The notes under the pieces: generated by a model
Databases searched by the model: none
What the model was told of the DNA's origin: nothing
Seen by the model: only the letters and a program-made list of their open reading frames with translations
In this document: positions 4,862 to 62,067 of the stretch, one piece after another
Position numbering within the stretch: position 1 is the first letter of the stretch
Layout of the letters: every line of letters begins with the position of its first letter
Translations under genes and position numbers: made by a program
Assembly (NCBI RefSeq): GCF_004010195.1
Contig: NC_057749.1
Span: 9,512,646-9,576,645 of the forward strand
DNA: 64,000 bases
Source of the DNA: Chiloscyllium plagiosum
Lineage: Eukaryota
Direction of reading: 5' to 3'

Positions 4862-5251
4862 TACACAGCATCAATGTGGACTTCAACAGTTTCCTCATTT
4901 CCCCTTCCCCCACCTCACCCCAGTTCCAAACTTCCAGCTCAGCACTGTCCCCATGACTTGTCCTACCTGCCTATCTTCTTTTCCACCTATCCCACTCTAC
5001 CCTCCTCCCCGACCTATCACCTTCATCCCCTCCCCCACTCACCTATTGTACTCCATGCTACTTTCTCCCCATCCCTACCCTCATCTCACTTATCTCTCCA
5101 CCCTTCAGGCTCTCTGCCTGTATTCCTGATGAAGGGCTTTTGCCCGAAACGTCGATTTTACTGCTCCTCGGATGCTGCCTGAACTGCTGTGCTCTTCCAG
5201 CACCACTAATCCAGAATCTGGTTTCCAGCATCTGCAGTCATTGTTTTTACC
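4862..5251 (+). mobile_element. PLE 3' fragment: ORF end HSINVDFNSF, pyrimidine-rich UTR, hammerhead core at 5122-5157, tail
   Basis: attc CTGATGA a gggc tttt gccc GAAAC GTC gatt. 7-bp TSD tcatcag at 4855-4861 and 5252-5258. Confidence 0.8.
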
Positions 5252-6169
5252 TCATCAGGACACAGGACAGGGAAGACTACACACCAACCTAATTCACATG
5301 GTAGCATCCTGGCCTCTGATTCAATGGGTTCAGCTGAGTCAACCTCTACTGTCAGACTTGGAGCACACAATCCTGACCATGTCTTGTAATTGGGCAACAC
5401 AGTGGCAAATGGAATTTACATCCAGATGAGTGCAGATTGTTGCATATTAGAAGGTAAGACCTGCATCTTGTCGGGGAATGGCATAGATGTAGGGCATTGG
5501 GAGGGGCAACCGACACCAAGCAGCAAACAATCAAGATGACTTGAAGCTGAATTACGTCACTAAAACAGAAATCAGAAGAGGCCACACACAAACTGTCTCA
5601 GTGAGCAAATTCTAGCCTCGACTCCATAATGAGACAGAAACCCATGAGTTCAAAATCCACTCCTGAATTTGAAGGCTGACTCCTCAGAGGGTATGACACT
5701 GCCCTCATCCCTTTGGGTAAAACTTAGTACATCACAGGCAAATATAAAAGCGACTCCTTGAAACAGGGCAGTGAGTTTATCCTGGTTTGGTCGCCACCAT
5801 TTCTTCCTTGGCCATGAATGCCCTTGACCTCATTTGGGAGCGGTTGCATTTCACTGTGTACTAATTGAATGCTGCGTGGGTTAATTATATGGAGGGCCAG
5901 TTGTCTCTTCTGCGTTTACTGGTTCATGCCCAACTCAAACTATGCCTTACTGCTAACATTCTTATTTTGGCTTCACTTACTTTCCTCATCCCTTTGGCTT
6001 GCTAGCCTGCAGCACTGTACTTTTGGTGGCACACGGTGTTCCCATCACTACCCAACTTTCCCCAGTAACTCATCAATGTGTGAGCTAAGCAGGATCTGCT
6101 AAATGGCTATCAAACTGAGAAATGTCACAATAGGCTTGATTTCATCCACAAATGGAAAATTTTCAAAGA

Positions 6170-7590
6170 CAGTAAGAACAGTGCAGCACAGGAACAGGCT
6201 CTTTAGCCCATCAAGACTACACTGACATATGATGCCTTTCTAAACTAAAAACCTTTTCTGTCTAAACCTATGTTCCCTTGTAGTTGACATTTCTACCCTG
6301 GGAGAAAGGACTCCAAAGATCCATTCTAACTGTGCCACTCATAATTTTGTAAACTCCTATCAGGTCTACCACCTCATCCTTAGATGTTCAAGTGAAAACA
6401 AACCAAGTTTGCCCAAACTCTCATAGCTAATACCCTCCAAACCAGGCAACATCCTGGTAAACTGTTTCTGTGCACAACATTCTAAATGTTCCCTAACTTA
6501 AAGTTCTACCCAGCTGCAACATAACATGCCAATTTTTATACTCTATGATTCAACCAATGAAGGCAAGCAATGTTATATGCCTTCTTGACCACCTTATCCA
6601 CTTGTGTTGCCACTTTCAGGGAGCTGTGGACTTGTGGAAATGTATGTTGATGCTACTAAGTGGTTCTGCCATTTACCGTATGCTTCCCCACTTCATTAGA
6701 TCTTCCAAAATGCATCACCTCGCACTTGTCCGGATTAAACTCCATCTGCAATCCTCTTCACTATGAACAGCTCTCCCATTCTTTGTGTCATTTGCAAATT
6801 TACTAATCAGGTTACCTACATTCTCCTCCAGATCATTGATATATATTCCAAACAACAGGGACCCCCGCACTGGTCCCTGCAGAACATGACTGGTCATACA
6901 TCTCCAGTCAGAAAAACACTCTTCTACCTTTACCCTCGGTCTTCAGTGACTAATCCAGTTCTGTTTCCATCTTACAGCTGAGCAAAGATCCCATGTGACT
7001 GTACCTTTCATATCAGCCTGCCATGAGGGATCTTGTCAAAGGCAAGGCTAAGGTCCATATAGACAGCATCCACTGTCCTGCCCTCATCACTCATCTTTGT
7101 TACTTCCTCAAAAAAACTCAAGTTTATGAGATACGACCTTCCCCACACAAAGTTGTGCTAGCAATTACTAATAAGTCCATATTTTGCTAAATGTGTATAA
7201 ATCCTATCCCTAAGAATCTTCTCCAATAATTTCTCTACCATTGATGTAAGGCTCACCAGCCTGTAATTTCTCACTTATCTCTTGTTGCCCTTCTTAAACA
7301 AAGGAACATCGTTGACTATTCTCCAGTTCTCTGGGACCCCTCCTGTGACAAAGGACGATATAGGGATTTCATACAAGGGACCAGCAATTTCCTCACCTGC
7401 TGCCCTCAGCATTCTGGGATCGATCCCATCAGGTCCTGGGGACTTGTCTACCTAACTACTTTTCAAAACAGCCAACATTTCCTCCTTTTTTATATTGACA
7501 TACCCTTGAATATCAAAATACCCTTCTCAAGACTCATCATCCATCATGTCCTTCTCCTTTGTGAATTCCAATGTAAAATATTCATTAAGG
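6170..7590 (-). mobile_element. Decayed CR1 (HER1-like) LINE RT and 3' end
   Basis: ORF-track peptide LLFGIYINDLEENVGNLISKFANDTK plus CR1 3' features. Confidence 0.8.
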
Positions 7591-7999
7591 ACTTCCGTGA
7601 TGAGGAGGGAAAGCCCTGGCTGAGTGCAGCTACTGTAACACTAGTGGAAGTCAGCAAAAAATCAGCACTAGGCCTTGAGGTTTCCCTATTCCGTACATCT
7701 CAGTATTTAACTGGTTTGTTTTTAAATACCAAATAATGCTGATTGGTGAAATGAAGAGAGAAGTGACTCATGTAGAACATGAACACCAGTATAGAACAGT
7801 TGGGTCAAATGGCCCGTATCTGTGCTGGAAATTCTGTGTAATTCAACTTTTAAACCAATGAGGATCACATTCATTTTCTCAGGAACATTCTAGTCATACA
7901 ACCTTTGGTGTATGGACTGAAGCATGTCACAAATGAGGAAACTGGCTTCATAACAATAATATGTATTGTTTTGCAAAAATGATCCAGACAAAACGGTAC

Positions 8000-8035
8000 C
8001 TTCAATCCATTCTTTCCTGGTGTTCCAGGTGCGCC
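8000..8035 (-). CDS. CCBE1: CCBE1-family exon 9 equivalent (36 nt): GAPGTPGKNGLK
   Basis: ttatatttctag|GGC GCA CCT GGA ACA CCA GGA AAG AAT GGA TTG AAG|gtacc. Four Gly-X-Y triplets, comparable to human GPPGAPGRDGSK. Phase 0-0. Confidence 0.92.
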
Positions 8036-10589: not shown

Positions 10590-10590
10590 C

Positions 10591-10625
<35 letters not shown>

Positions 10626-10860: not shown

Positions 10861-10867
10861 TATTTAC

Positions 10868-19010: not shown

Positions 19011-19217
19011 AAAACCGAAAGAACTGTGGATGTTGGAAATCAGAAACAAAAACAGAACTTGTTGGAAAAGCTCAGCAGGTCTGGCAGCATCTGTGAAGAG
19101 AAATCAGTGTTACCGTTCTGAGGAAGGGTCATCAAACCCAAATCACGAACTCTGATTTCTCTTCACGGATGTTGCCAGACCCGCTGAGCTATTTCTACAA
19201 TTTATGTTTTTGCTTTC
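19011..19217. mobile_element. Palindromic PLE-derived element with decayed hammerhead (ctgaggaagggtc...)
   Basis: Arms gctcagcaggtctggcagcatctgtgaagagaaatcag and ctgatttctcttcacggatgttgccagacccgctgagc. Confidence 0.7.
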
Positions 19218-19269: not shown

Positions 19270-19900
19270 TCTCCATCCAGAGCCAGAAGAAACTACAGAG
19301 AGTTGTGAACACAGCCCAGACCATCCCATGAGTCAATCTTCCATCCATTGATTTCATCTTCACATCTTGCTGCCTTAGAAAGGCAGCCAATATCATTAAA
19401 GACCCCTCCCACCCTGGTAGTGCTCTCAATATCATCAAAGACCCCTCCCACCCTGGTAGTGCTCTCAATATCATCAAAGACCCCTTCCACCCTGGTACTG
19501 CTCTCAATATCATCAAAGACCCCTCCCACCCTGGTACTGCTCTCAATATCATCAAAGACCCCTCCCACCCTGGTAGTGCTCTCAATATCATCAAAGACCC
19601 CTTCCAACCCGGTACTGCTCTCTTCCAACCTCTTCTGTCAGGCAGAAGATAAAAAAGCTTAAACTTATGTACTAACAGGTTCAAGAACAGCTTCTTCCCC
19701 GCTGTTATTAGAGTTCTGGATGGACCTTTCAAATTTCAAATTTAATGTTGATCTTACTTTTTGTGCACTTTCTTTGCAGCCAAACCTTTGTATTCAATCA
19801 CCCTACAATCTTTGTTTGTTATGATCTGCCTGTACTGCATGCAAAACAAAACTTCTCACTGTACCTAGGTACATGTGACTACAATCAAATCAAATCAAAT
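19270..19900 (+). mobile_element. Rex1/Babar-type LINE 3' end with (aatca)n tail; relatives at about 1612-1822(+), 40485-40722(+), 40960-41160(-), 41400-41870(-), 54770-55165(-)
   Basis: Decayed KKLQRVVNTAQ...CLRKAANIIKDPSHPG...SGRR...TNRFKNSFFPAVIR C-terminus. Confidence 0.72.
19389..19622 (+). repeat. Minisatellite, 6 x 39 bp
   Basis: Unit aatatcatcaaagacccctcccaccctggtagtgctctc, near-identical copies. Confidence 0.95.
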
Positions 19901-19990: not shown

Positions 19991-20248
19991 TAGATTAGAT
20001 TAGAATCCTTACAGTGTGGAAACAGGCCATTTGGCCCAACAAGTCCACACCGACCCTCCAAAGAGTAACCCACCCTGACCCATTCCCCTACCCTATATTT
20101 ACCCCTAACTAATGCACCTAACACAATGGACAATTTAGCATCGCCAATTCACCTGACCAACACATCTTTGGATTGTGGGAGGAAACCAAAGCACCCAAAG
20201 GAAACCTACGCAGACACGGGGAGAATGTGCAAACTCCACACAGACAGT
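19991..20248 (-). mobile_element. HE1-type V-SINE, head missing
   Basis: (tagat)n tail and V-domain; ends at the PLE palindrome. Confidence 0.82.
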
Positions 20249-20249
20249 G

Positions 20250-20470
20250 TGGAGTGGTGCTGGATTAGAGTGGTCCTGGAAAAGCACAGCAGGTCAGGCA
20301 GCATTCAAGGAGCAGGAAAATCAAGCTTTCGGGCCAGAGCCCTTCATCAGGTTTTGGCCAGAAATGTCGATTCTCCTGTTCCTCGGATACTTCCTGACCT
20401 GCTGTGCTTTTCCAGCACTACTCTAATCTTGACTCTGATCTCCAGCATCTGCAGTCCTCACTTTTGCCTG
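20250..20470. mobile_element. Palindromic PLE-derived element with a minus-strand hammerhead core (20321-20351)
   Basis: Arms tggaaaagcacagcaggtcagg and cctgacctgctgtgcttttcca. Minus strand core: CTGATGA a gggc tctg gccc GAAA gc TT. Abuts a truncated HE1 SINE. Confidence 0.8.
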
Positions 20471-22385: not shown

Positions 22386-23142
22386 ATACTGCATCTGCCA
22401 AGCGTTTGCCCACTCACTCAGCTTATCCAAGTGGTCAACCCTGAAATCTCTCTGTTCTTCCCTTGTTTCACTTCGAGATCAGCAGGGGTTGAGAGGCTAG
22501 TACTCTCACCCCGAATTAGAGTCCAAACCTCACTCCAGAGCTTACAGCACAAGTCTAAGTTCATGCTAAGTTGCAGTACAGGGTGAGTGTAATCTTTGAT
22601 ATGAGATACCAAAGACAAATTCCAAGGGACTATTCTAAAGTCATCTTAGAATCAATCTGGCACCCTGAGACACATGAGGCAGATGAAATGCATCTTGCTG
22701 CAGTTTATCTTTCCTGGAGGAGGTCACCAGCTTGTCACCAACATCTGTAGTTTCAAGGGCTCTATTCTGCATCAAGCATGGTTGACCAACAGATTCTCCT
22801 ACTCTCCCTGCCTGCCATAGGATGTACAGGTTCATAAACAACCTGATGGCTTATGAACTCACCTTTCTTTGCCGAAGAGTAGAACATCGAATATAGAACA
22901 TTACAACCTTCCGCCCTCGATGTTGTGCTGCCCTGTGGAACCAATCGAATGCCCATCTAACCTACACTGTTCCATTCTTGTCCATATACCTCTCAAATGA
23001 CAATTTAAATGCCCTTAAAGTTGAAGAGTCTACTACTGTAGCAGGCAGTGAGTTCCATGTCCCTACTGCTGTCTGAGTAAAGAAACCACCTGTAACATCT
23101 GTCCTATATCTATCACCCCTCAATTTAAAGCTATGTTCCCTT

Positions 23143-23268
23143 TGTGGTGCTGGAAAAGCACAGCCAGTCATGCAGCATCCTCGGATGCTGCCTGACCGGC
23201 TGTGCTTTTCCAACATCACACTGTTTGACTCTGATCTCCAGCATCTGCAGTCCTCACCTTCTCCTAGT
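23143..23268. mobile_element. Palindromic PLE-tail element without a hammerhead core
   Basis: Arms ggaaaagcacagccagtca and tgaccggctgtgcttttcc, plus the shared tail ctccagcatctgcagtcctcac. Confidence 0.68.
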
Positions 23269-27389: not shown

Positions 27390-27842
27390 CTGTAGAGAAC
27401 AGGAACAAGTCCATGTCACTGGTTTAAAATCAGAAGGCATTCACCAGCACTACAACAATGAATGATTAAGTGTGACATTATGTTCAAATGAATGCCTCAA
27501 GTTTTCATAGATTTGCACCAAAACCAGGAAGTGTAATAGCAAATGTAACGCTGAATGCATGCTACAAAAAGATTGAGGAACTTGAGACTGGAGAGACAGG
27601 TGCCAGTTCTTATATGGAAGTTAATTGGACCAGTGTCTGGCTACTAATTTTCGAGGTTTCACCGAACCATCTTTTCTTTCAAAAAACAAATTCCATGAGG
27701 AAGTCCAAACCTATTCATAAAATGTACCCTTTCTATAATCTGTTACCTGCATCCTACCTCACACCAAGTCCTGTTGACCCATTGCTCCTGTACTCACTGG
27801 TCTACATGGGCTGCTGCTTTGGCAATGCCTTGATTTTAAAAA

Positions 27843-27935
27843 GGCCTGAAGAAGGGCTTATGCCCGAAACGTCGATTCTCCTGTTCCCTGGATGCTGCCT
27901 GACCGGCTGCGCTTCTCCAGCAACACATTTTCAGC
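27843..27935 (+). mobile_element. PLE-derived mini-insertion with hammerhead core (27846-27873)
   Basis: CTGAAGA a gggc ttat gccc GAAAC GTC. Probable TSD tttaaaaa at 27835-27842 and 27936-27943. Confidence 0.78.
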
Positions 27936-29462: not shown

Positions 29463-30922
29463 TCCTTGACTCAAGCAACAAATGCAAGCACGAAAACAAA
29501 AATAAGGAAAGGTTGAGGCTGGCAGATAGTAGAGAATGGAGTCAATCAAATTATCTGGGTCATTGATATAAATTGTAAAAGATTGAAGTCACAGCACAGA
29601 TCCTGTGTGGGACTTCACTTGCTGCATCCTGCCAATTAGGTAAGAACCGATTTATGCAACTCTGTTTTTGCCAGGTTGACAATTTTCGATCTATACTAAC
29701 ACATTACCCACTACATCATGCACTTTTACAATGACCTTCAATTTGGCATCTTTCAAAAATCGAAGTACATCTCCTCTTTATCTACACCACATGTTACCCC
29801 CTTCAAAGAAGTTTAATAAATTGGTTGAACATGATACCATGCTGACTCTTCCTGATTATATTGAGTTCTAAATGTGCAGCTATAATCGCTTTAATCATTG
29901 ATTTGAACACCTTTCTCTTGAAAGGCTTCAAGCTGATTGGCCTATCGTCTCCTGTTATCTGTCTTCTTTGCTTCTTAATTAGCAGAATTAGTTTTGCTAA
30001 TTTTCAGTCAGGCAATCTGGCAAATTAACACTAATTCATCTACTACCTCATTAGCAACCTCCTTTATGACCCGAGGACAAAGTCCATTAGAACCCAGAGA
30101 CTTAAAAACCTGCAGCTCCATCAGTTTGCTTTGTGCCATTTCCCTAGTGACTGTAATTTCACTAAGTTGCTCTCTCTCTTCCACCTCCTGATTTACAGCT
30201 GTAACTGGAATGTATATTGTATCCTCTATAGTGAAGACAGAAGCAAAATATTTGTTCATTTTGTCATCAATTACCTTATTATCTACTATTAACTCTCCAT
30301 TCTCATTCTGTAGAAGACCAACGTTCACATTATTTACCCTTTTTCTTTTCTAATACCTGTAAAATTCTTCTGTTTTTACATGCAAAGCTGGACTCCTCTC
30401 TGAGAAGCCATCTAAACTCGGAATATTAGCTTGCTTTCTCTGCATGGACGCTGCCTGACTCACTGTGATCTCCAACATTTTTTGTTTTCAGTGCATTCTT
30501 CTCATGCTTGAATTTCTTCTTCCTAATTAATCTTGTCATTCTCTGCTGTTCTTCATACTTGAGCCAATAATCTGACCTCCCACTCATCGATGCTCAGTTG
30601 TACATTTTTTTCTTTGAGTTTTGATGTTTACCTGAACTTCTCTAGTTAGTGGGTCCTCTCTTTAGAATTTTTCTTTATAGCAGGAAGATATTTATTCTGA
30701 AAGTATCCCCTCAAATGTCTGCCACTGCGTCTCTGTTGATCTATCCCCCAGTCTAGCACACTATCTTAGGTCATCTAGCTCAGCTTCATGCCAACAGAGT
30801 TACCTTTAAGGTTAAAATACTGATCTTAGACTTGATTTGGAGATGCCGGTGTTGGACTGGGATGCACAAAGTTAAAAATCACACAACACCAGGTTATAGT
30901 CCAACAGGTTTAATTGGAAGCA

Positions 30923-30957
30923 CACTAGCTTTCGGAGCGACGCTCCTTCATCAGGTG
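30923..30957 (-). ncRNA. Minimal type I hammerhead ribozyme motif, intact core
   Basis: Minus strand: cac CTGATGA a ggagc gtc gctcc GAAA gc TA gtg. Stem I cac/gtg, perfect 5-bp stem II, palindromic AGCT stem III. Confidence 0.8.
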
Positions 30958-30967
30958 ATCAGACAAT

Positions 30968-31002
30968 CACCTGATGAAAGAGCATCGCTCCGAAAGCTAG
31001 TG
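30968..31002 (+). ncRNA. Minimal type I hammerhead ribozyme motif
   Basis: Plus strand: cac CTGATGA a agagc atc gctcc GAAA gc TA gtg. One mismatch at the base of stem II. Confidence 0.72.
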
Positions 31003-31612
31003 TGCTTCCAATTAAACCTGTTGGACTATAACCTGGTGTTGTGTGATTTTTGATCTTAGACTAGTCTTCTCCCTTTTTAAATTGGATGAAAACTTCAATG
31101 ATATTATGGTTGCTGTGACCTAGGGGCATTTTGGCCTGGAGGTCATCAATTAATTCTGTCACATTACCAAGTCTAACACCATGTGCCCCGTAATTGGTTC
31201 AAGAATGTGCTGCTGTAAGGAACTATCTTGAAAGCAGTCTCCTCATCCAGGCGATTACTGTCAGTCTGATCTTTCCAGTATATACGTAGATTAAGAACAT
31301 CCATGTTTATTACCACCACTACTCAATATTTCTTATTATGTACTGTCTCCCACATTGTGGCTACTGTTAAGGGGACTGCATGCTATTGCCATTAATGACT
31401 TCTTTCCCCTGTCTTTCCTAATCTCCATCCAAACTGATTCTATGCCTTGATTGACTAAACGGAGGGCCAAATGCACAGAGTCCTGTGCTTTACTCGAGCA
31501 GTTTTATGATAATATGTTGCATCTAAAGTAAGAAGAGTACAAATGGGTCACAGTATCCCAATGAAAAGACTGTAGATGAGCAATACGTTATTAATAAAAT
31601 CCGCAATCTCAC

Positions 31613-35799: not shown

Positions 35800-37545
35800 G
35801 TCAAGTCATACAGCATGGAAACAGACCCTTCGATCTAACTCGTCAACACTGACCATGTTCCCAAACTAAACTCGTCCCACCTGCCTGCATTTGGCTGATA
35901 TCCCTCCAAACCTTTCCTATTCATGTACTTATCCAAATGTCTTTTAAATATTGTAACTGTATCCACCACTTCCTGAGGAAGTTCATTCTACACACTAACT
36001 ACTCACTGTATAAAATGTAGCCCCTCATGACCTTTTTAAATCTCTCACCTTAAAAATGCCCTAGTTTTGAACTCCCCCTCTTTAGGGTAAAAATGTTTGC
36101 CATTCACCTTATCAATGCCACTAATGATTTTATAAATCTCTATAAGGTCACCCCTCAACCTCCTACACTCCAGTGAATACAGTCCCAGCCTAGCCAGCCA
36201 ATTTTTATAACTCAAGCCCTCTATTCTTGGCAACATCCTGATCTTTTCTGAACTCTCTCCAATTTAATAATTTTCTTCCTATAACAAAGTGACCAGAACG
36301 GCACACAGTACTCCACAAAAGGCCTCACAAATATCCTGTACAAGCTCATCATGATCTCCCACCTCCTATGCTCAAAGGTCTGAGAAATGAAGGCAAACAT
36401 GCTAAGTGCCTTCTTAGTTGAAACTTTATTGCTGGAACAGCACAGCAGGTCAGGCAGCATCTAGGGAACAGGAGATTCGACGTTTCGGGCACAGGCCCTT
36501 CTTCAGGAATGGAGTGCCTTCTTAACCATCCTGTCACACAAATTTCTAAGGATGGTGTACCTACCTAAACCTCGAGATCTCTCCCTTCTACAACACCACC
36601 CAGGGCCCTACCATTAATGGTTTTAGTCTTGCCCTTGCTTGTTTTACCAAAATGCAATACCTTGCATTTGTCCAAATTAAACTCCATCCGCCACTCCCAT
36701 TGACCCAATTGATTAAGACCTCTTTGTAATCTTAGATAACCTTCCCTGTCCGCTATCCCACCAATCTTGGTGTCATCCACAAAATAACCAACCATGCCTC
36801 TTATATTTTCATGAAAATTGTTTATATAAATGATAAACAAAAGTGGACTCAGTACTGATCCCTGTGGAACACTGTGGAACACCTCCAGTCCAAAAACAAA
36901 ACCCTGCACTACCACCCTCTGTCTCCTACCGTTAAATGAATGTTGAATCCAGCTGACAAGGTCTTCCTGAATTCCATGTGCCCTAACTTTACTAATTAGT
37001 CTACCATGCGGAATCTTATCCAAGGGCTTTACTAAAGTCCAAGTAAACAATATCAACCACTCAGCCCTCATCAATCGTTTTGGTTACTTCTGCAGAAAAC
37101 TCAATCAACTTAGTAAAACATGATTTCCCTCGCACAAAAGCCATGCTGACTATCCCTAATCATTCCTTGCCTCCCAAAATGCATGTAAGTTCTACCTTTC
37201 AGAATCACCTCGAACAACTTACCCACTATTGATGTGAGACTCACAGATCTATAGTTCCCAGGCACCTCCTTACATTCCTCCTTAAACAAAGGTACAACAT
37301 TAGCCACCCTCCAGTCTTCTGGCTCCTCTTGGTCATAGATGATATGAATATCTCTGCTAGGGGTCATGTAATTTCCTCCTTAACTTTCCACAATGTCCTG
37401 GGAAATACTTGACCAGTCCTGGATATTTATCCATCTTTTTAAGACCTCCAGCACTTCCTCTTCTGTAATGTGAACTGTTCTCAAAGCAACAATATTTATC
37501 TCTCTGAGTTCTCTAGCCTCCTTTCCTTTCTCCACAGTAAAAACC
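35800..37545 (-). mobile_element. CR1 (HER1-like) LINE RT and 3' end, frameshifted
   Basis: EDWRVANVVPLFK...NYRSVSLTS; VPQGSVLSPLLFIIYIN...FVDDTKIGG; RRLRGDLIEIYKI. Confidence 0.92.
36417..36512 (-). mobile_element. 96-bp PLE-derived mini-insertion containing a hammerhead motif (36475-36510), nested in a CR1 RT
   Basis: Minus strand: attc CTGAAGA a gggc ctgt gccc GAAAC GTC gaat, with perfect stems I and II. 12-bp TSD agtgccttctta at 36405-36416 and 36513-36524. Confidence 0.85.
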
Positions 37546-37896: not shown

Positions 37897-38080
37897 GACA
37901 AAAAAACTGCAGATGCTGGAATCCAAAGTAGGCAGGCAGGAGGCTGGAATGGCACAGCAAGCCAGGCAGCATCAGGAGGTGTCAAGTTAATGTTCCTGAA
38001 GAAGGGTTATGCCCAAAACGTTGACTTCTCTACCTCCTGATGCTGCCTGGCTTGCTGTGTTCCTCCAGCTTCCTGCCTAT
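37897..38080. mobile_element. Palindromic PLE-derived element with decayed hammerhead (37996-38025), nested in a CR1 3' end
   Basis: Arms cacagcaagccaggcagcatcaggagg and cctcctgatgctgcctggcttgctgtg. Centre CTGAAGA agggttatgccc aAAACGTT. Confidence 0.72.
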
Positions 38081-41000
38081 GACTGAATGATGGAGCAGAT
38101 TGGATGGGCTGAATGGTCTAATTCTACTCTGATATCTTATGTTCTTATGGTCTAAGCATGTTTAATAGCCTTCTCAACTTGTCTTCCAAGACTTGAGTAC
38201 CAATTCCCAAACCTTTGGTTCTTTGAACCATTAAAGCCAATGGTTCTCAATATTCCTCATCCATGGAACACTTAGGTGGAGCAAAAAGATGTTGCAGACT
38301 ACAACCAGTTTTACTTCAGGCTTTTTTGTTCACCAGCACAAAAATACTCCGAAGAGTGAACACGGAGAATGGTGCTCCTTTTGATGAGACAACGGTGAGT
38401 TCATGTCTGGCTCCAAGTGGGAGAGAGAAACAGAGCTAACGTTTTGAGTCTTCGTCAGACTTGAGTTTCAGTCTCATGTTGGCCCCACAGGTGTTGAAAA
38501 TACCATCACGGCGTTGAACGTGGAAACAGTAACAGAAATATGGAACTTGAAACATTGTCGTTCTTGCTTTCACCTCCAGCCAGTTGGACCATGAGCTCAG
38601 AAGCTGGTCCGCTTGTGTGACATAAAGCCAGCTGTGGAGATGAGATTCTGTCCTGGCAAGGTGTTTGTGCATCAGTGACATACATTTCGGTCCAGACCAC
38701 AGACCGAAAGAAAAACTCTTGGGGACCACCAATGGACCACACTTTTGAGAACCACAATGTAGAAAGACTGAAGTCACACATAGATCAGACCAAGTAAGGG
38801 TGGCAGATTTCCTACTCTAATGGGCATTGGTGAATCAGATTTTTTTTACAACAATCAATGATGGTCATAATGACTGAGACTAGCTTTCATTTTCAGATTT
38901 ATTGGGTGAGTTTGAATTCTACCTGCTGTTCATAGGAGTAGCCCAGGCACTTGGATTACTCATCCAGTGGTGTGATTACTGCACTACCATCTCTCCTGCT
39001 TCCTGCATTAACGCTTCCTACATTACAATGCTGATTACACTTTGAAAGGCCTTTATTATTGTGTATTGCTTTAAGGCATCAAGAAAGGCAAGAATGTCTT
39101 TATTCCTTCAACCTAACACACCATTCTTGCTCACAACTCTTATCGGTCATAAAAAGACAGTCAGACCATTTTGGGATTGTTAAGCTCTCCCTTCCCTAGA
39201 GGTTCCAAGAATGAATGATGTCTCCTGTTAGAGCCATCGAATTCCTCGAAGGCAAATAGATGCCATTCAGCCCATCAAGACTGTACTGACCATTCAAAGA
39301 GTATCCCATTCCCCCACCCTAGTGCCCTAATTGTGCATTTCCCATGGCTAATCCATATAGCCTGCATGTCCTTGGATATTATGGGCAATTAAAAATGGCA
39401 AATCCACCTAACCTGCACATCTTTGAACTGGAGAGCAGTCCTCAAGCAGATTCATGGTAGGTTGGGAGAAGGGGTTCTTTGTATGTTTATTTAAAACTTC
39501 CTTGGATACTTTCATTTCTTAGTTGTGAACCTACTGGGGTGGGAGAAAAAGACCAAATGGATGTTTCATTGATTGGAGCCATGACCAGGTAAGGATTACA
39601 TGCAAGCAGACTAGGCTACACAAAACTGTGCTAAGGGGGTTGCTGTTCCACACTACAATTCAAGTACAAATGTGCTGTTTTTGGAACACTTCAGCTTCAT
39701 TCAGAAGCACAGCAATTAAGAAAAAAAGGTGGTTTCCAGTTATTGCAAGTCCACAATAACAACATCCACTTGCAATTAGATACCAGCTTTAATAGTCTAA
39801 CAGTCATACTATAAATGTATGCAATAAATGTGGAAGGAAATGGTTCTAGCAGGGAGTAATATCTCATAAGTATCCAGTTTCTGCTCTCAAATCTCATTGT
39901 TACTGCCTCGTTTTGTATTTCATTCATTGGTGTTGTGTTCCCATAGCATTAGGCTGTCTGCAAAGTGGTACAGTACCACCCTGCCAATTCCCCATGGGAA
40001 GAGAACTGTCATCTCTGTTAGCTCAGCTTGTGGCTCGTCACTCTACCGTCTGGAATAGAGTAAATTGCATTTGCTAGAATAAAAGACTGGCTTTAAATAG
40101 CACCCTTTCTAACCATCGGACATCTCAAAGTGCTTTACTGTACTTTAGTTAAGTCCTTTCAAAATGTAATCATTCTTGCAATGAAAGAAATGCAGCACTC
40201 AGTTTACACACAGCAAACTTCCACACACAGCAATGTGATAACCTGTTATTTGTGATATTTTGTAAAGAATAATTCTTTGATCAGAACGCTGTGGACTATT
40301 CCTGCTGTAGTTCTATCCAATGCTACAGGATCTCTTACATTGACTTGTGTAGTTGAGATCTCGGTTTAATGTTTCTTGCAAAAGGTACCTCCTTTCAACA
40401 CTCCCTCAGTACTGAACCTCCAACAGTGCGGCTCTCCCTCGATACTGCACTGAGTGTCAGTTGGGCAGAAGATGCAAAAAACACAGACCAACAGATTCAA
40501 GAACAGCTTTTTCCCCACTGTTATTAGACTGCTGAATGGACCTTTTAAATTTAAAATTTAAATGTTGACCTCACTCTGTGCACTTTCTCTGCATCTGTCA
40601 CGTTGTATTCCTCGCTCTGTTCTATTACCCGAATGCACTTGTATGGGATGATCTACCATACTGCACGTAAAACAGAACTTTTCAATGTACTTCGTTACAT
40701 GTGACAATAATAAATCAAATCAAAAAGTTTGTCTGGCATTGGACTTGAATGCGAACTGAGCCACAGCTGATACTACAAGTGAGGAATGGACTTGTCTTGA
40801 GTCCCAGCTGTTTGAGAGCTAACTAAGTACTTTTGGAGTACAAACACCACTACAGTATACTGAACAATTCGTAAGGCTTCAGGAACAGCATTGAGAGAAC
40901 TAACCATGCGATCTGACAATCTTGAATGAATGTGGGTCAAGAGATACCAGTAACTCTGCCCAATTAAAGAGGTTAAAAGCGGGGTGGGAGGAGTCTTTGA

Positions 41001-44998: not shown

Positions 44999-45048
44999 AA
45001 GCAGCTGCTCAGGGTGTAGGTTTGCTCGCTGAGCTGTAGGTTTGATAT

Positions 45049-45088
45049 CCAGACATTTCACTACCTGGCTCGGTAACATCATCAGTGG
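45049..45088 (-). ncRNA. Hammerhead ribozyme motif (type I, minimal, partly decayed) at the PLE 3' end
   Basis: Minus strand: cca CTGATGA t gttacc gagcca ggtagt GAAA tg TC tgg. Stem I cca/tgg; stem II gttacc/ggtagt with G-U pairs. Confidence 0.7.
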
Positions 45089-45314
45089 TGACCTCCAAGT
45101 GAAGCGAAGCTGTTGTCTCCTGCTTTCTATTTATATGTTTGTCCTGGATGGGGTTCCTGGGGTTTGTGGTGATGTCATTTCCTGTTCGTTTTCTGAGGGG
45201 TTGATAGATGGTATCTCGATCTATGTGTTTGTTTATGGCATTGTGGTTGGAGTGCCAGGCCTCTAGGAATTCTCTGGCATGTCTTTGCTTAGCCTGTCCC
45301 AGGATAGATGCGTT

Positions 45315-45481
45315 NNNNNNNNNNNNNNNNNNNNNNNNNNNNNNNNNNNNNNNNNNNNNNNNNNNNNNNNNNNNNNNNNNNNNNNNNNNNNNNNNNNNNN
45401 NNNNNNNNNNNNNNNNNNNNNNNNNNNNNNNNNNNNNNNNNNNNNNNNNNNNNNNNNNNNNNNNNNNNNNNNNNNNNNNNN
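45315..45481. other. Assembly gap (167 N) inside the Penelope-like element
   Basis: Run of N. Confidence 1.
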
Positions 45482-45949
45482 CGGACTGTATTTTTTGAGT
45501 ATCCGTTCTTCTTGAATACGTTGTATATGTGGCTCTGCTCTGTTTTCCGAAGTTCGTCTGTGCTGCAGTGTGATGTGGCTCGTTGGAATAGTGTTCTGAT
45601 ACAGCTTTGTTTGTGTGTGTTGGGATGGTTGCTGGTGTAGTTAAGTATTTGGTCAGTGTTTGTCGGTTTTCTGTATACGCAGGTTTGTAGTTCTCCGTTG
45701 TCCTTTCTTTCGACTGTGACGTCCAGCTGCTTGCTCTTGCATGATGGTGAAAGTGGGTACTGCAGATGCTGAAGATCAGAGTCAAGATTAGAGAGGTGCT
45801 GGAAAAGCATAGCAGGTCAGGCAGCATCCGAGGAGCAGGAAAATCGTCACTTTACCATTTCAGCAAGAAGGGAGTTTTCCCCAGAGTCCCACCCAATATT
45901 TACCCCCTCAACCAACATTATTAAAACATCGCTGGAATGTTGCAGGGAT

Positions 45950-47719: not shown

Positions 47720-49690
47720 GTGTAGGAGCAGAAGTAGGCCACTCAGCCCATCAAATCTGCTCTGCCAGTCAATGAGATCATGTTGATCTGATCATCCTCA
47801 ATCCACTCTCCTACCTTTTTCTTATAGCCCTTGATTTCCTTACAGATTAAATATCTACCTCAGCCATAATATGCTTAACGTCCCAGCCTCTACAGCCCTC
47901 TGCTGTAAAGAATTCCATAGGTTCACTACTCGTTGAAAGAAGAGATTCCTTCCCATCTATGTCCTAAATTGGTGACCCCTTATTCTGAGATTATGTTCCC
48001 TGGTCCAGGTGTTTTCCACAAGAGAAAACAATCTCTCAGCATCTATAATGTCAAGCACCTTAAGAATCCTGTATGTTACCTTGTCTATATTGCTCTGTGT
48101 AATCCTCACCACTTAAGCTCCCACCTATTTTTGTGTCATTCGCAACTTGCTGACCATACATTCATTTCTCTCATACAAGTCATTAATATATATTGTAAAC
48201 AATTATGACCCAAGCACTAATCCCTATGACACTCCACTAGTTTCAGTTTGCCATCACGAAAATGTACCCCTCATCCCAACTCTGTCATATATTAGTTAGC
48301 CAATCCTCCGTCCCTTTTTATACACAGCCGCCAGCACCATGGCCTTTTGTCTCATTAAATAGCAGACTTTTATCGAATGTCTTTTGGAATTCCAAATCTG
48401 TTACGTACCCTGCCTCTTATCTCGTTGAAGAATTGTAGGTTTTACAGACTTGATATCCCCTTCATGCTGACTCTGTTTGATCATATTAGTATTTTGAATG
48501 TTCTCCCATCACCATCCTGTATAAATACTCTAACATGTTTCTAATGACTGATGTTGAGCTAACTGGCCTATAGTTACCTGTTTTTACGTTTCTCCTTTTT
48601 TGAATAAGGGCGTTACATGGGCGTTTTTTTAATTCTCTAGAACATTTCCAGAATCTCCAAATTAGAATCCTCACAGTATGGAAACAGGCCCTTAGGCCCC
48701 ACAAGTCCACACCGACCCTCCAAAGAGTTACCCACCCAGACCCATTTCCCCTACCCAATATTTACCCCTGACTAATGCATCTAACGCTATGGACAATTTA
48801 GCATGGCCAATTCACCTGGCTTTGGATTGCAGGATCCAAATCTAAGGACACTTGGAAGATTACTACCACTGCATCCACTTTCACTGTAGCTATTTCCTTT
48901 AATATTCTGGGGTGCATAACATTAGGTCCAGGGATCTATCAGTCATTGGCGGACAAGCAGGAGGCTGGAAGAACACAGCAAGCCAGGAAGCATCAGGAGG
49001 TGGAGAAGTCAATGTTTCGGGTGTAACCCTTCTTCAGGACTAGGATTGGGTGTAAGGAGGGGCTGCAGATAAAGGTGAGGGTGGGGGAGGATTTTTGGTG
49101 TGGAGGGGGCAGAGTGGGGAGGTAGGGATAGGTTAGCACAAGTAGAGGGTACGACCTGATTGATCACTGGGAGGAAAGCATCTGATTGGAAGCTGAAAGG
49201 AAGGGTCAGTTGGAGGAATGGAAGGGGTGGAAAGGGAATTGAGGGATGGGAGGAGAGATTATTTGAAGTTGGAGAACTCAACATTGAGTCCTCCAGGCTG
49301 TAGGCTGCCCAGGTGGAAGATGAAGTGTTGCTCCGCCAACTTGTGGTCTGATTCGTATTAGTCTTTAGCCATATCAGGTCTGAGGAAGGGTCACTGGAAC
49401 TGAAACGTTAACTCTGATTTCTCTCCATAGATGCTGCCAGAACTGCTGAGTTATTCCAGCAATTTCTGCTTTAGTTTCCCAAATACTTTTTCTCCAGTGA
49501 TACGCATTTCCTCTGCCGCTTTTTGGTTGCTTTCTGTGTCTGAAACATTACTCGTGTCCTTTTTTTGAAGACTGATGCAAAGTGTTTCTTCAACACCTCT
49601 GCCATTTCGTTGTTTCCCAATATTATTTCTCCGCCTCAATCTCTGAAGGGGCCAATGTTCACTTCAACCCCTCTCTATCTTTTGTGTAAA
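47720..49690 (-). mobile_element. Decayed CR1 LINE interrupted by HE1 and PLE insertions
   Basis: KTGNYRPVSSTSVIRNMLE peptide and CR1 3' features. Boundaries are approximate. Confidence 0.65.
48950..49356 (-). mobile_element. PLE 3' fragment with GIY-YIG-region C-terminus and decayed hammerhead (49007-49041)
   Basis: 49354-49259 translates ESDHKLAEQHFIFHLGSLQPGGLNVEFSNFK*. Downstream: agtc CTGAAGA a gggt tac accc GAAAC ATT gact. Confidence 0.82.
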
Positions 49691-53169: not shown

Positions 53170-54650
53170 TGGCTGTTTTGAAGACAGATAGAGCCCTCGA
53201 TGAATACAAAGGTAGCAGGAAAGAACTCAAACAAGGAATTAGGAGGGCTAAGAGGGGTCTTAAAATGTCTTTGACAAACAGAATGAAGGAAAATCCCAAG
53301 GTGTTTTACACGCACATAAGGAGCAAGAGGGTAGTGAGGGAAAGGGTTGGTCCACTCAAGGACAAAAGGAGGGAATTTATGCGTGGAGCTGGAGGAAATG
53401 GGTGAGCTCTTTAACAAATACTTTGCATCTGTATTCACCAAAGAGAAAGACATGGTGGATGGCGAGTCTTGGGAGGGGTATGTTGATATTCTGGGTGATG
53501 TCAATATAAATAAGGAAGTAGCGTTGAGTATTTAAAAAGCATTAAGGTAGACTAGTCCCCTAGACCTGATGGGATCTATCCCACAATGCTGAGGGAGGCA
53601 GGAAAGGAGATTGCTGGGACCTTGTTCGAAATCTTTGTATCCGAAAGTCACAGGAGAGGTCCCAGAAAACCGCAAAATAGCCAACATTGTTCCTTTGTTT
53701 AATTAGGGCAACAGGGAAAATCTGGGAAATGAATCCAGTGAGCCCCTTCATCAGTGGTAGGGAAATTATTGGAGAAGATTCTTAGGAATAGGATATATTC
53801 ATAGTTGGAAAAATATGGACTTATTAGGGATAAGTGGCATGGCTTTGTGTGGGGAAGGTCGTGTCTCACAAATTTGATTAAGTTTTTTTGAGGAAATGAC
53901 AATGGGGAGTGATGGGAGCAGTAGATGCTGTCTACATGGACTTTAGCCATGCCTTTGACAAGATCCCTCATGGCAGGCTGATATGAAAGGTAAAGTCATT
54001 TGGGATCTTTGGTGAGCTGGTAAGATGGGAATAGAACTGGATTAGTCACAGAAGACAGAGCGTAGCAGTGGAAGGGTGTTTTATTGACTGGAGATCTATG
54101 ACCAGTGGTTTTCCACAGGGATCAGTGCTGGGACCCCTGTTGTTTGTAATATATACAAATGGAGGAGAATGTGGATCACCACCCTAGTAAATTTGTGGAT
54201 GAGCCAAAGATTGGAGGAGTTGCAGGTAGTGAGGAGGATTACCAGTGGATACAGTAGTAAGTGGCAATACAAGTGGATAAGGTGGTCAAGAAGGCATATT
54301 TTACATACTTGCATGTTAATGAAACAAAACCTGCAACCCATTCTGAAAGATGAAAGACTTAACAGCAATCTAGGTTTGTTCAATATATTGTTTCAGTTGC
54401 ATGACACTGTAATCTTTTGCTATAAATTCTATGTCTTACAATCCTGCTCCACAGCCACCTGTTGAAGGAGCAGCGCTCCAAAAACTAGTGCTTCCAAATA
54501 AACCTGTTTGACGATAACCTGGTGTTGTCTGATTTTTAAGTTTGTCCACCCCAGTCCAACACCGGCACCTCCACAAGAAGGCATATGTCACGCTTGCCTT
54601 CATCAGTCAGGACATACAGTATAAAAATTGACAAGTCATGTTGCAGCTGA
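53170..54650 (+). mobile_element. CR1 LINE ORF2 fragment ending about 40 bp from the exon 3 donor
   Basis: KENPKVFYTHIRSKRVVRERVGPLKD; LFNKYFASVFTKE; PQGSVLGPLLF-like segment. Confidence 0.88.
54300..54573 (+). mobile_element. PLE-derived insertion of the same family as 30833, hammerhead mutated
   Basis: cac CTGtTGA aggagcagcgctcc aAAA actagtg followed by the shared tail. 13-bp TSD caagaaggcatat at 54287-54299 and 54574-54586. Nested in a CR1. Confidence 0.8.
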
Positions 54651-59433: not shown

Positions 59434-59525
59434 CTGAAAATGTGTTGCTGGAAAAGCGCAGCAGGTCAGGCAGCATCCAGGGAACAGGAGAATCGACGTT
59501 TCGGGCATAAGCCCTTCTTCAGGAA
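59434..59525 (-). mobile_element. PLE-derived mini-insertion with hammerhead core (59492-59525)
   Basis: Near reverse complement of the 27843 copy. 8-bp TSD cctcaaat at 59426-59433 and 59526-59533. Confidence 0.82.
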
Positions 59526-60520: not shown

Positions 60521-60699
60521 TTTACTTTTAGTGGTTTTTACCCAGGCATAGCAACCTGTTATAACTCCCATCACCTCTGTTAAATATCACTCATCTCTTT
60601 TTTTCAACCAGTTATATTGCCATTCCCTTCGGCCTTTTACATCATGTGGTGTCTCTGCCCTATACCATATCACAGAGCTTCTCCTTTATTCTTCTTCCA

Positions 60700-61190
60700 G
60701 AACCTTCCCCCTTTTGCTTGCTCAAAACCACCTCTGACCTCTCAGTTCTGGTCAAAGGTTATGGACCTGGAACATCAGTTCTGTTTTTCTCTCCCTCTCT
60801 GCCATTTCTGCCTGACCTGCTGCATTTGTATGTTTTTATTTCAGATCTCCAACAACTGCAGTGTTGTGAAAACCAAAAGAACTGCGGATGCTGGAAATCA
60901 GAAACAAAAACAGAAGTTGCTGGAAAAGCTGAGCAGGTCTGACAGCATTGTTGGAGAGAAATCAATAGTTACATCCTCAGAACTGATGGGAGTGAGGAAA
61001 ATGTCGCTTAATATTCAGAAGATAGGGTGGGGGGAGGATGTAAGGAGTAAATGATAGGTGGTGATAGAGCCCAAAGAGAGAAAGGACAGTTGAACAGACA
61101 AAGGAGTGGATAACGATCTGGCTAGGAGGGTGAGTATCTATTAATGCGAACTATTAGTGGCTAACAATGGGTTTTGTGTAATAGCAGTAT
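60700..61190. mobile_element. Adjacent decayed PLE-derived 3' ends in opposite orientation
   Basis: Contains aaagaactgcggatgctggaaatcagaaacaaaaacagaagttgctggaaaagc, as in the 19011 element, and a purine-rich UTR. Boundaries are approximate. Confidence 0.55.
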
Positions 61191-61475
61191 TGAGCTGGGA
61201 TGTAAGTGTGCTGTTCAACCTCAATCATCTTCGTTCATCACTGGTATAATATCAGTCTCTGTTTTGGATGGGGACAAGGAGGTAGTGAGCCATAAGTGAT
61301 TAGTGAGTATCTATTAATGCGGACTATTAGTGGCTAACAATGGGTTTTGTGGAATAGCAGTATTGTGCTGGGATGTAAGTGTGCTGTTCAACCTCAATCA
61401 TCTTCGTTCATCACTGGTATAATATCAGTCTCTGTTTTGGATGGGGACAAGGAGGTAGTGAGCCATAAGTGATTA
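61130..61475 (+). repeat. Direct tandem duplication, 2 x 173 bp
   Basis: 61130-61302 and 61303-61475; I counted 3 substitutions. Confidence 0.93.
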
Positions 61476-61940
61476 AGGTGAATGCGGTGCTGCAAGAAAG
61501 TCACATGCAAACTGGTGATGCCAATTCTTGCCAAGTCAATCTCAAAGTAGTCTCCACAAATCCCTGAATAGAGGGTGCAGCAAAACATACCAGCTGACCC
61601 AAGGTGCTTTTACCATAATATAAATCATTAACGTGCAAGCGCACTATTACCTTAGCTTGCAGACAATAACAGATGGTGCTAAAGCACTCAGTCAACAAAG
61701 ACTCTGGGAAAGTGGCTGCAGAACTAGGGATTGTCCAGAAGGTGGAGCAGTGGCTCTGCATTCATTAGAAAAATCCAGCATTGGGCTCCCTACCAGAGAA
61801 AGTTTGCAGCAACTTTATTCAATTTCATAGTAAATATTAAGTGTTAATGTTACACACAGTGACTGAATGGATAGAGCAAATGTTGAAAACTGTTTACTGT
61901 TGGCAGGAGAGTCAATAACCAGAGGACAATGTGGTTAAGG

Positions 61941-62067
61941 CAAAAATGAGGACTGCAGATGCTGGAGATCAGAGACTGGATTAGAGTGGTGCTGGAAAAG
62001 CACAGCAGGTCAGGCAGTATCCGAGGACCAGGAAAATCGATGTTTCAGGCAAAAGCCCTTCATCAAC
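61941..62067 (-). mobile_element. PLE-derived mini-insertion with decayed hammerhead
   Basis: Same tail family. Minus strand tTGATGA agggcttttgcct GAAAC atc. 10-bp TSD gtggttaagg at 61931-61940 and 62068-62077. Confidence 0.78.

What the first reader, a model, noticed from the sequence alone, without database searches (positions are those of the whole stretch)
4862..62067. Dense family of hammerhead-ribozyme-bearing Penelope-derived mini-retroelements in CCBE1 introns
Seen: more than ten CTGANGA-stem II-GAAA cores or their decayed forms. Recognisable cores are at 5122(+), 20321(-), 27846(+), 30923(-), 30968(+), 36475(-), 45049(-), 49007(-) and 59492(-); decayed ones are near 19118, 37996, 49380, 54458 and 62040. 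Stem II covaries between families (gggc/gccc, ggagc/gctcc, gggt/accc, gttacc/ggtagt) while the core is kept. Stem III is reduced to a palindrome (ACGT or AGCT), and there is one extra nucleotide after CTGANGA. Three cores sit downstream of PLE ORF ends, tying the motif to Penelope-like elements. Established: PLE termini carry minimal type I hammerheads thought to act as dimers. Inference: this genome has several independent non-coding, ribozyme-containing retroelement families of only 90-280 bp, resembling retrozymes and mobilised by PLEs. I am not aware of a detailed description in sharks.
Basis: partly seen in the sequence, partly recalled or inferred. Interest (0 to 1): 0.8.

Follow-up and report, generated by a model that had tools for sequence, protein, structure and literature searches.

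The report
Penelope retroelement tails with minimal hammerheads
The hammerhead-ribozyme motifs are real, but they sit in ordinary broken end-pieces of Penelope-like jumping genes, a known kind of element, not in a new class of tiny ribozyme-carrying retroelements.

Summary
Eight cores keep CTGANGA, one bulged base, a helix II of 4 or more bp, and GAAA; the reversed-sequence control gave 0 and shuffles a mean of 0.16.

They belong to at least five Penelope-like element (PLE) families.
- Longer copies run upstream into the C-terminal end of a GIY-YIG endonuclease ORF.
- Short and long copies of the young family A do not differ at any of 90 positions.
- The insertions show the published PLE hallmarks: strong 5' truncation, an adjacent inverted 5'-truncated copy, a 37-40-nt tail on one arm only, and 8-16-bp target duplications.
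- Head-to-tail tandems are rare: 24 junctions against 33,294 exact cores. They are therefore not retrozymes or SINE-like families.

This is a new member of a known kind (min-HHRs of PLE pseudo-LTRs, 2014). Earlier follow-ups of this scan reached the same verdict on other windows of this genome.

One addition, inferred only: roughly two thirds of family A copies stop within about 11 nt upstream of the core, about 30 nt downstream of a TATA-like box. The short units may therefore be cDNAs running from the internal reverse-transcription start back to the element's transcription start.

The parts
2144..2300 (.). Inverted pair of family A-like tail fragments with no hammerhead core left. The left arm carries the tail. 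An 11-bp target duplication CTATTCTCTGT lies at 2133 and 2301.
   Evidence: Rfam miRNA-like hairpin hit 2188-2292
4837..5251 (+). Long 5'-truncated PLE copy (older A-type subfamily). It holds an endonuclease C-terminal remnant at 4837-4944, a C/T-rich 3'UTR, the core at 5126-5149 (GGGC/GCCC, ACGT) and a unit plus tail ending about 5251.
   Evidence: model 129-458; E 0.017
19020..19215 (.). Inverted pair of family E (helix I GTT/AAC). The decayed core starts about 19100 (+) and the left arm carries the tail.
20236..20462 (.). Inverted pair, A-type. The full arm is on the - strand with the core at 20327-20350 (AGCT variant). The inverted arm is truncated in the helix II loop and carries the tail.
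23122..23265 (.). Inverted pair of A-type tails, both arms truncated about 40 nt past the core position, so no core remains. The right arm carries the tail.
   Evidence: Rfam hairpin hit 23143-23220
27843..27935 (+). Solo short family A unit with the core at 27846-27869. An 8-bp target duplication TTTAAAAA lies at 27835 and 27936, and two extra G precede CCTG.
   Evidence: (L001)
30840..31052 (.). Family C inverted pair with cores at 30930-30954 (-) and 30971-30995 (+) (GGAGC/GCTCC, AGCT, cleavage triplet CTA). The left arm carries the roughly 40-nt tail, and the right arm ends at GATTTTT.
   Evidence: Rfam miRNA-like hit 30910-31015, E 4e-07
36417..36512 (-). Solo short family A unit with the core at 36483-36506, inserted in a CR1-like LINE. 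A 12-bp target duplication lies at 36405 and 36513.
37902..38094 (.). Family B inverted pair. The decayed core starts about 37995 (+) (GAAA changed to AAAA) and the left arm carries the tail.
45005..45740 (-). Family D long copy of a different PLE lineage. It holds an RT-endonuclease linker remnant at 45481-45726, a withheld N run at 45315-45481, the ORF end, TATAAAT 50 nt before the core, the core at 45056-45085 (GTTACC/GGTAGT) and an AC-rich tail. The 3' limit is approximate.
   Evidence: E 0.036
45746..45850 (-). A-type tail fragment that starts near the predicted cleavage site and carries the tail.
48929..49351 (-). Family B long copy. It holds the endonuclease C-terminal end at 49265-49351, a roughly 225-nt 3'UTR, the core at 49015-49037 (GGGT/ACCC, helix I AGTC/GACT) and the unit.
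   Evidence: E 5.5e-04
49370..49498 (+). Family E short copy with a decayed core at 49380-49405.
54418..54575 (+). Family C long, decayed copy. It holds TATAAAT at about 54422, a decayed core starting about 54459 (CTGTTGA ... CAAAAA) and the tail.
59434..59525 (-). Solo short family A unit with the core at 59499-59522. An 8-bp target duplication lies at 59426 and 59526.
60894..60972 (-). Family E-type tail fragment without a core.
61940..62067 (-). Solo short A-type unit with the tail. The decayed core (TTGATGA ... GCCT) lies at about 62036-62059, and a 9-bp target duplication lies at 61931 and 62068.

Best explanation
The cores are minimal type I hammerhead motifs (min-HHRs) carried in the 3'-terminal (pseudo-LTR) region of at least five PLE families that are hugely abundant in this shark-type genome. 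The window's copies are dead-on-arrival products of PLE retrotransposition.

Shown here:
- Reverse transcription starts inside the element RNA at one of two fixed sites 37-40 nt apart, giving a short end and a 'tail' end.
- The copies end upstream at variable points, most often just 5' of the hammerhead.
- In many events a second, 5'-truncated cDNA is joined head to head. This gives a hairpin in which exactly one arm has the tail.
- Each event is flanked by an 8-16-bp target duplication, usually starting CTTTAA.

Inferred:
- The hammerhead itself (CUGANGA, bulged base, helix II of 4-6 bp, GAAA, a four-base palindrome in place of helix III, helix I of 2-4 bp) can only cut when two copies pair through the palindrome, as proposed for PLE min-HHRs.
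- Solo copies and hairpins in introns should therefore be inert.
- The sharp 5' end just upstream of the core is most likely the element's transcription start. The roughly 95-135-nt units would then be cDNAs from the internal start site back to the capped 5' end of the PLE RNA.
For: Identity with PLEs:
- The family A unit recurs at 93-100% identity in the window's genome (60 matches scored of 1363 first-look candidates).
- Of the 30 loci examined, 10 continue upstream into a common 3'UTR, 13 have an abutting inverted copy and 7 are solo.
- A second set of 30 loci was fetched with the ORF-end piece of one copy. Their in-frame stretches of up to 235 aa carry a GIY-YIG-type region.
- Pfam GIY-YIG matches only weakly (E 0.019, 15.7 bits, below the 22.6 cut-off).
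- Of 14 homologues, two of 902 and 924 aa carry RVT_1, and the first also GIY-YIG.
- The endonuclease piece has 149,728 first-look candidates in the genome.
- Window matches to the ORF end or linker lie upstream of cores 49015, 5126 and 45056.

PLE hallmarks:
- There are two discrete 3' ends. 29 copies continue with the tail (CTCTGA...) and 23 end short before CTTTAA, among the copies in the loci and window.
- In 13 of 13 pairs exactly one arm has the tail.
- Target duplications of 8-16 bp were found in 17 of 20 events; mismatched flanks reach 8 bp or more in 5.5% of 380 pairings.
- Family C shows the same layout.

Structure:
- Helix II differs between families but stays paired.
- Read, helix I is UC/GA (A), AGUC/GACU (B), CAC/GUG (C), CCA/UGG (D) and GUU/AAC (E).

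No separate lineage: short (n=20) and long (n=10) copies have the same majority letter at 90 of 90 positions.

Published match:
- min-HHRs in PLE pseudo-LTRs, mostly as single motifs 'probably related to truncated PLEs', some in opposite strands (PMC4209133, parts read).
- Inverted 5'-truncated copy and 30-40-bp tail (PMC8557442, passages).
- Internal initiation at two adjacent sites and extension of both strands in Anolis PAc (PMC11167929, main text read).
Against: - No full-length element could be inspected. The bodies of two long-frame copies read N (3100 and 2200 N), so the 5' pseudo-LTR and the RT domain of these families were not seen.
- Pfam support for GIY-YIG is below threshold, and the window's ORF remnants match only at E 5e-4 to 0.04.
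- Helix I of the most abundant family is only 2 bp, then a U-U mismatch, then 1 bp.
- Predicted folds of unit plus tail are no more stable than shuffles (z 0.04, -0.63, -0.56).
- No cleavage evidence exists. Copy 5' ends do not cluster at the predicted cut site.
- The one RNA run that gave reads shows no pile-up of read starts or ends. Both strands are covered, depth follows DNA copy number, and 93% of reads run on into unrelated sequence.
Confidence: 0.9

Rival explanations
1. One reading: the 90-280-bp units are independent non-autonomous, retrozyme-like or SINE-like families that carry their own hammerhead and are mobilised in trans by PLEs.
For: The units have discrete sizes and target duplications and are very numerous: 33,294 exact family A cores. 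Roughly two thirds of them lack the upstream 3'UTR. A 2026 preprint argues that vertebrate non-LTR retrozymes derive from PLE pseudo-LTRs and sampled one chondrichthyan (10.64898/2026.07.22.740005, results section, first of two parts, and passages read).
Against: There are no diagnostic differences between short and long copies (0 of 90 positions). TRF lists no array over any hammerhead unit in the window. Genome-wide there are only 24 tail-to-head junctions. No tRNA, 5S or 7SL head and no canonical hammerhead was found by Rfam. Short copies lack the upstream TATA-like box, so they carry no evident promoter.
Confidence: 0.06
2. The hairpin forms are MITE or fold-back DNA transposons with terminal inverted repeats, unrelated to retrotransposition.
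For: Long, near-perfect inverted repeats score as miRNA-like hairpins in Rfam (for example 30910-31015, E 4e-07), and they have flanking duplications.
Against: The arms are unequal: one arm is always variably truncated at the axis and only one carries the tail. Duplications vary from 8 to 16 bp. The arm sequence is the PLE 3' end.
Confidence: 0.02
3. Rival for the sub-claim only: the sharp 5' end just upstream of the core is not a transcription start. It is a place where the reverse transcriptase stops or switches template, for instance at the edge of a protein-bound hammerhead fold, or an RNA end made by other processing.
For: The boundary coincides with the 5' edge of helix I in families A and C. 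In Anolis the element's protein binds near this region and assists the ribozyme (PMC11167929). The RNA run gave no start pile-up, though its single-cell polyA library is poorly suited to show starts.
Against: A canonical TATAAAT lies 30-31 nt upstream of the short-copy 5' end in family C. TTTTATC lies about 32 nt upstream of the A of TCATTCC, an initiator-like word, in family A. By my eye count of the 100 rows listed, 21 are solo copies that start with ATTCC, and the base just before ATTCC is G in 13 of them. That fits a cap-derived extra base.
Confidence: 0.3

Closest known systems
Minimal hammerheads (min-HHRs) in the pseudo-LTRs of metazoan Penelope-like elements (Cervera and de la Pena 2014, PMC4209133)
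   Same: Same core, an unpaired base before helix II, a short helix I, and helix III reduced to a palindrome that implies dimer action. They are mostly found as single motifs in truncated copies, some as pairs on opposite strands.
   Different: Sharks are not mentioned in that paper's main text (0 occurrences of shark, Callorhinchus or Chondrichthy); its supplements were not read. Helix II here is 4-6 bp, against 7-8 bp in the Schistosoma families.
Poseidon PAc of Anolis carolinensis (Frangieh et al. 2024, PMC11167929)
   Same: The hammerhead lies tens of nucleotides upstream of an internal reverse-transcription start. Two adjacent start sites define the 'tail'. Both target strands are extended. 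The target is AT-rich. No use of ribozyme-cleaved RNA is seen.
   Different: In PAc the ORF starts in helix II. In shark family A the ATG in the helix II loop opens only 26 codons (read). The target word here is CTTTAA rather than ATT. The evidence here comes from genomic copies, not biochemistry.
Animal non-LTR retrozymes (Cervera and de la Pena 2020, PMC7229834, listing and abstract only; Li et al. 2026 preprint)
   Same: Type I hammerhead, a link to PLEs, and small non-coding units.
   Different: Retrozymes are tandem arrays giving circular RNAs and have canonical hammerheads. Here arrays are nearly absent and Rfam's hammerhead models do not match.
Penelope of Drosophila virilis, promoter and start site in the pseudo-LTR (Schostak et al. 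2008, PMC2377424, passages)
   Same: Transcription starts inside the terminal repeat. In D. virilis an intron lies 46 bp downstream of the start, and the 2014 paper's figure legend draws the hammerhead across the 3' end of a Penelope intron.
   Different: The fly promoter is described as TATA-less with initiator and downstream element. Shark families C and D have a canonical TATA box.

Membership tests
PLE min-HHR | Conserved core CUGANGA ... GAAA with helix II closed by a loop | tested here: met
   8 intact cores in the window against 0 in the reversed control; 33,294 exact family A cores in the genome, control 0.
PLE min-HHR | Helix I formed by the bases just 5' of C3 and just 3' of the cut site | tested here: met
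   Five families with five different complementary words of 2-4 bp, read. Family A is weak (2 bp, a mismatch, then 1 bp).
PLE min-HHR | Helix III missing or reduced to a palindrome, so that two copies are needed | tested here: met
   ACGT or AGCT directly after GAA in families A, B, C and E; ATGT in D, not palindromic and possibly a decayed ACGT.
PLE min-HHR | Located in both pseudo-LTRs of an element with an RT and GIY-YIG ORF | tested here: inconclusive
   The 3' side is met. The 5' side and the RT were not seen because full-length bodies read N.
PLE min-HHR | Self-cleavage | not testable with these tools
   No read starts or ends at the predicted site in the one RNA run with reads; the library is not suited to the question.
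PLE insertion unit | 5' truncation, adjacent inverted 5'-truncated copy, 30-40-bp tail at one end, target duplication | tested here: met
   for family A; for family C; for the window.
Non-LTR retrozyme | Head-to-tail tandem arrays of the hammerhead unit | tested here: not met
   No array over any unit in the window; 24 tail-to-head junctions against 33,294 cores genome-wide.
Non-LTR retrozyme | Canonical type I hammerhead | tested here: not met
   No Rfam hammerhead family match at E up to 10.
SINE | tRNA-, 5S- or 7SL-derived head with an internal promoter | tested here: not met
   No Rfam match at gathering score anywhere in the window; the unit begins with the hammerhead core.

The most novel reading that the evidence does not exclude
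The roughly 95-135-nt hammerhead units are not random truncations. They are complete 'start-to-start' cDNAs. The PLE terminal repeat holds a TATA-type promoter whose start site lies 4-8 nt before the hammerhead. The reverse transcriptase begins at an internal site 90-130 nt downstream, so any transcript from any copy that keeps the promoter yields a short run-off copy ending at the capped 5' end. On this reading, most of the tens of thousands of solo hammerheads in this genome are by-products of internal initiation. Their two 3' ends, one-sided tails and head-to-head pairs would be an in vivo record of the two-site, two-strand priming so far shown only in vitro for one lizard element. It would also place the ribozyme at the very 5' end of the element's RNA, where cutting would remove the cap-bearing leader.
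Probability: 0.45. Interest if true: 0.45.

Novelty: new member of a known kind. Interest (0 to 1): 0.25.

Why it matters
For annotation: these fragments make up roughly 6% of the window, my sum over the parts listed. They produce hammerhead-like motifs and long hairpins that score as miRNA precursors in Rfam, and they should be masked as PLE termini. For PLE biology: the young, very abundant shark families give tens of thousands of clean insertion junctions. These could test, genome-wide, the internal-initiation and two-strand priming model derived from one Anolis element, and could locate the promoter relative to the ribozyme. It does not reveal a new class of ribozyme-bearing element.

Tried and rejected
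- Rfam at gathering score and at E up to 10 found no hammerhead family. Its 34 weak hits are mostly miRNA-type matches, several of them on the inverted pairs.
- MAFFT alignment of 12 cores misplaced family D, so no count of structure pairs or covariance model was made. Helix covariation was read by hand.
- Full-length elements: two copies with long apparent frames turned out to be N-filled. This was not pursued further.
- The idea that the PLE ORF starts at the ATG in the helix II loop, as in Anolis PAc, was dropped for family A. That frame stops after 26 codons at the start of the tail.
- The idea that ribozyme-cleaved RNA is the template was dropped. Arm and copy 5' ends do not cluster at the cut site (model position 404/405).
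- RNA evidence: no listed holder of the window stretch is on record as RNA. Of two raw-read single-cell polyA runs, one gave 0 reads. The other gave 1013 reads with no start or end pile-ups, so nothing can be said on a start site or on cleavage.
- Body-tail stems that would enclose the first start site are predicted for families A and C, but the folds are not better than shuffles. An apparent compensatory change at 19118 lies on two different arms and was discarded.
- The exact 38-mer count (6,901 of 33,294) understates the long copies, because several upstream variants exist. The 'two thirds short' figure is therefore an estimate.
- The CCBE1 assignment was not tested.


Full report
OBSERVATION

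The window is a piece of a 3.56-Gb genome. The loose pattern CTGANGA-N4-30-GAAA occurs 20 times on both strands. The 100 dinucleotide shuffles gave 7.07 +/- 3.06, and none reached 20.

A stricter descriptor of my own allows one optional bulged base and asks for a helix II of at least 4 bp and a loop of at least 3 nt. It finds 8 cores. The reversed sequence gave 0, and 50 mononucleotide shuffles gave a mean of 0.16.

Rfam reports no hammerhead family at gathering score or at E up to 10. Several of its weak hits are miRNA-type matches on long hairpins.

WHAT THE CORES BELONG TO

A profile built from six copies finds 21 related stretches in the window, several of them as head-to-head inverted pairs.

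The youngest family (A) recurs in the same genome at 93-100% identity. I examined the 30 loci of that call (29 fetched, plus the window's own copy):
- 10 continue upstream into a shared C/T-rich sequence.
- 13 have an abutting inverted copy.
- 7 are solo units with unrelated flanks.

I fetched a second set of 30 loci with the ORF-end piece of one copy. They show that this shared sequence is the 3'UTR behind an ORF end. In-frame stretches of up to 235 aa carry a GIY-YIG-type region.

Evidence that this ORF is a PLE endonuclease:
- Pfam's GIY-YIG model matches only weakly (E 0.019, below the cut-off).
- The 14 database relatives include proteins of 902 and 924 aa with RVT_1, and the first also has GIY-YIG. 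That is the PLE architecture.
- This endonuclease piece has 149,728 first-look candidates in the genome.

In the window, weak but correctly placed matches to PLE ORF ends or the RT-endonuclease linker lie upstream of cores 49015 (E 5.5e-4), 5126 (E 0.017) and 45056 (E 0.036). Core 36483 is different. It is a solo unit inserted, with a 12-bp duplication, into a CR1-like LINE.

Two copies that seemed to have long frames read N over 3100 and 2200 bases. I could therefore not see a full-length element or its 5' repeat.

ANATOMY OF THE INSERTIONS

Family A copies have two discrete 3' ends. One lies right after ...TTTTCAG. The other lies 37-38 nt further on, after a tail. Among the copies in the loci and window, 29 continue with the tail and 23 end short before CTTTAA.
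- In 13 of 13 inverted pairs exactly one arm has the tail. In 12 of them it is the truncated arm.
- Whole events are flanked by duplications of 8-16 bp in 17 of 20 cases. My parser failed on the other three.
- Flanks paired between different loci reach 8 bp in only 5.5% of 380 pairings.
- Most duplications begin with CTTTAA.

Family C shows the same plan with unrelated sequence. It has a short end at GATTTTT, an optional tail of about 40 nt, inverted partners and duplications.

These are the published PLE features: strong 5' truncation, an adjacent inverted 5'-truncated copy and a 30-40-bp tail at one end (PMC8557442, passages). They also match the in vitro behaviour of the Anolis element PAc: internal initiation at two adjacent sites and extension of both target strands (PMC11167929, main text).

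NOT SEPARATE MINI-ELEMENTS
- Short (n=20) and long (n=10) family A copies have the same majority letter at all 90 positions. This sample is the best-scoring set, so it is biased towards identity.
- TRF lists no array over any hammerhead unit in the window.
- Genome-wide, the tail-to-head junction occurs 24 times against 33,294 exact cores; reversed-pattern controls gave 0.
- The units have no tRNA, 5S or 7SL head.

This rules against retrozyme or SINE membership. It does not rule out that PLE machinery copies them, which is exactly what a truncated PLE copy is.

THE RIBOZYME

The core letters are kept across families while helix II changes in a paired way: GGGC/GCCC, GGGU/ACCC, GGAGC/GCUCC and GUUACC/GGUAGU.

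The bases just 5' of C3 pair with those just 3' of the predicted cut. The word differs in each family: UC/GA, AGUC/GACU, CAC/GUG, CCA/UGG and GUU/AAC (read).

Helix III is only ACGU or AGCU. So, as published for PLE min-HHRs, two same-sense copies would have to pair. Solo copies cannot do that within one molecule, and in hairpins the core is sequestered by its complement.

I have no evidence of cleavage:
- Copy 5' ends do not cluster at the cut site.
- One polyA single-cell RNA run gave 1013 reads on both strands, and 93% of them ran on into unrelated sequence.
- Depth in that run followed the DNA copy profile, with no start or end pile-ups.

The reads therefore look like passive transcription of embedded copies.

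AN ADDED READING (INFERRED)

Exact genome counts for family A:

| Pattern | Count |
|---|---|
| 27-nt core | 33,294 |
| Core preceded by ATT | 21,160 |
| Core preceded by the commonest 11-nt upstream word | 6,901 |

Upstream variants exist. I tallied by eye the 100 rows listed, whose filter favours long copies, and 57 were long. After correction, about one third of the cores belong to long copies. About two thirds end within roughly 11 nt of the core.

That boundary lies 30-31 nt downstream of a canonical TATAAAT in family C. In family A it lies about 32 nt downstream of TTTTATC, at an initiator-like TCATTCC. Family D has TATAAAT 50 nt before its core.

Among the 21 solo copies in the sample that start with ATTCC, the preceding base is G in 13. 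That could be a cap-derived extra base, or it could reflect a target preference.

In Drosophila virilis the Penelope start site lies inside the repeat, with an intron 46 bp downstream (PMC2377424, passages). The 2014 paper's figure legend draws the hammerhead across the 3' end of a Penelope intron.

Together this suggests that the short units are run-off cDNAs from the internal initiation site to the transcript's 5' end. I rate this at about 0.45. The main rival is a stop or template switch at the edge of a protein-bound hammerhead.

COMPARISON AND NOVELTY

The arrangement is that of min-HHRs in PLE pseudo-LTRs (PMC4209133). That paper already notes many single motifs in truncated PLEs and pairs on opposite strands.

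Its main text does not mention sharks. A search for hammerhead ribozyme, shark and Penelope together found one review, in which 'shark' refers to the motif's shape.

A 2026 preprint on vertebrate retrozymes sampled one chondrichthyan. I read the first of two parts of its results section, and passages. Either may list shark motifs.

Earlier follow-ups of this scan reached the same 'known kind' verdict on five other windows of this genome and on one window of another genome. My tests were made independently, and they agree.

VERDICT

This is a new member of a known kind, of low to moderate interest.

Noticed in passing
L036:1783-1813 (family A core region): 29 RNA reads have unmatched ends whose consensus is the core region with many A read as G (ATTCCTGGGGAGGGGCTTGTGCCCGGGGCG, agreement 0.74). 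This looks like A-to-I hyper-editing of double-stranded RNA formed by the inverted pairs.
   Followed up: no
window 30910-31015, 37953-38058, 2188-2292, 23143-23220: The PLE inverted pairs score as plant or animal miRNA precursor families in Rfam below gathering score (best E 4e-07). This is a likely source of false miRNA calls.
   Followed up: partly
window 36568-37083 (-) and 5-415 (-): LINE remnants: a CR1-like reverse transcriptase (RVT_1, E 5.5e-13) and an Exo_endo_phos endonuclease piece (E 2.1e-05).
   Followed up: no
L036:1820-1912; L082:105-245: In families A and C, a word in the unit body is complementary to a word in the tail (GGAUGCUG/CAGCAUC; GUUGGACU/AGUCCAAC). The first reverse-transcription start site would then sit in the loop. 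The sequences differ between the families, but the predicted folds are not better than shuffles.
   Followed up: partly
loci L002-L030 (flanks): Family A insertions strongly prefer targets beginning CTTTAA. These share 2-3 bases with the element sequence that follows the short 3' end (CTCT).
   Followed up: partly
window 45315-45481: A run of 167 N lies inside the family D PLE copy, where the GIY-YIG core would be. It is apparently a withheld stretch.
   Followed up: no
window 19388-19622 and 61130-61475: Two tandem repeats unrelated to the hammerhead units: a 39-bp unit with 6 copies (95% matches) and a 173-bp unit with 2 copies (98%).
   Followed up: no
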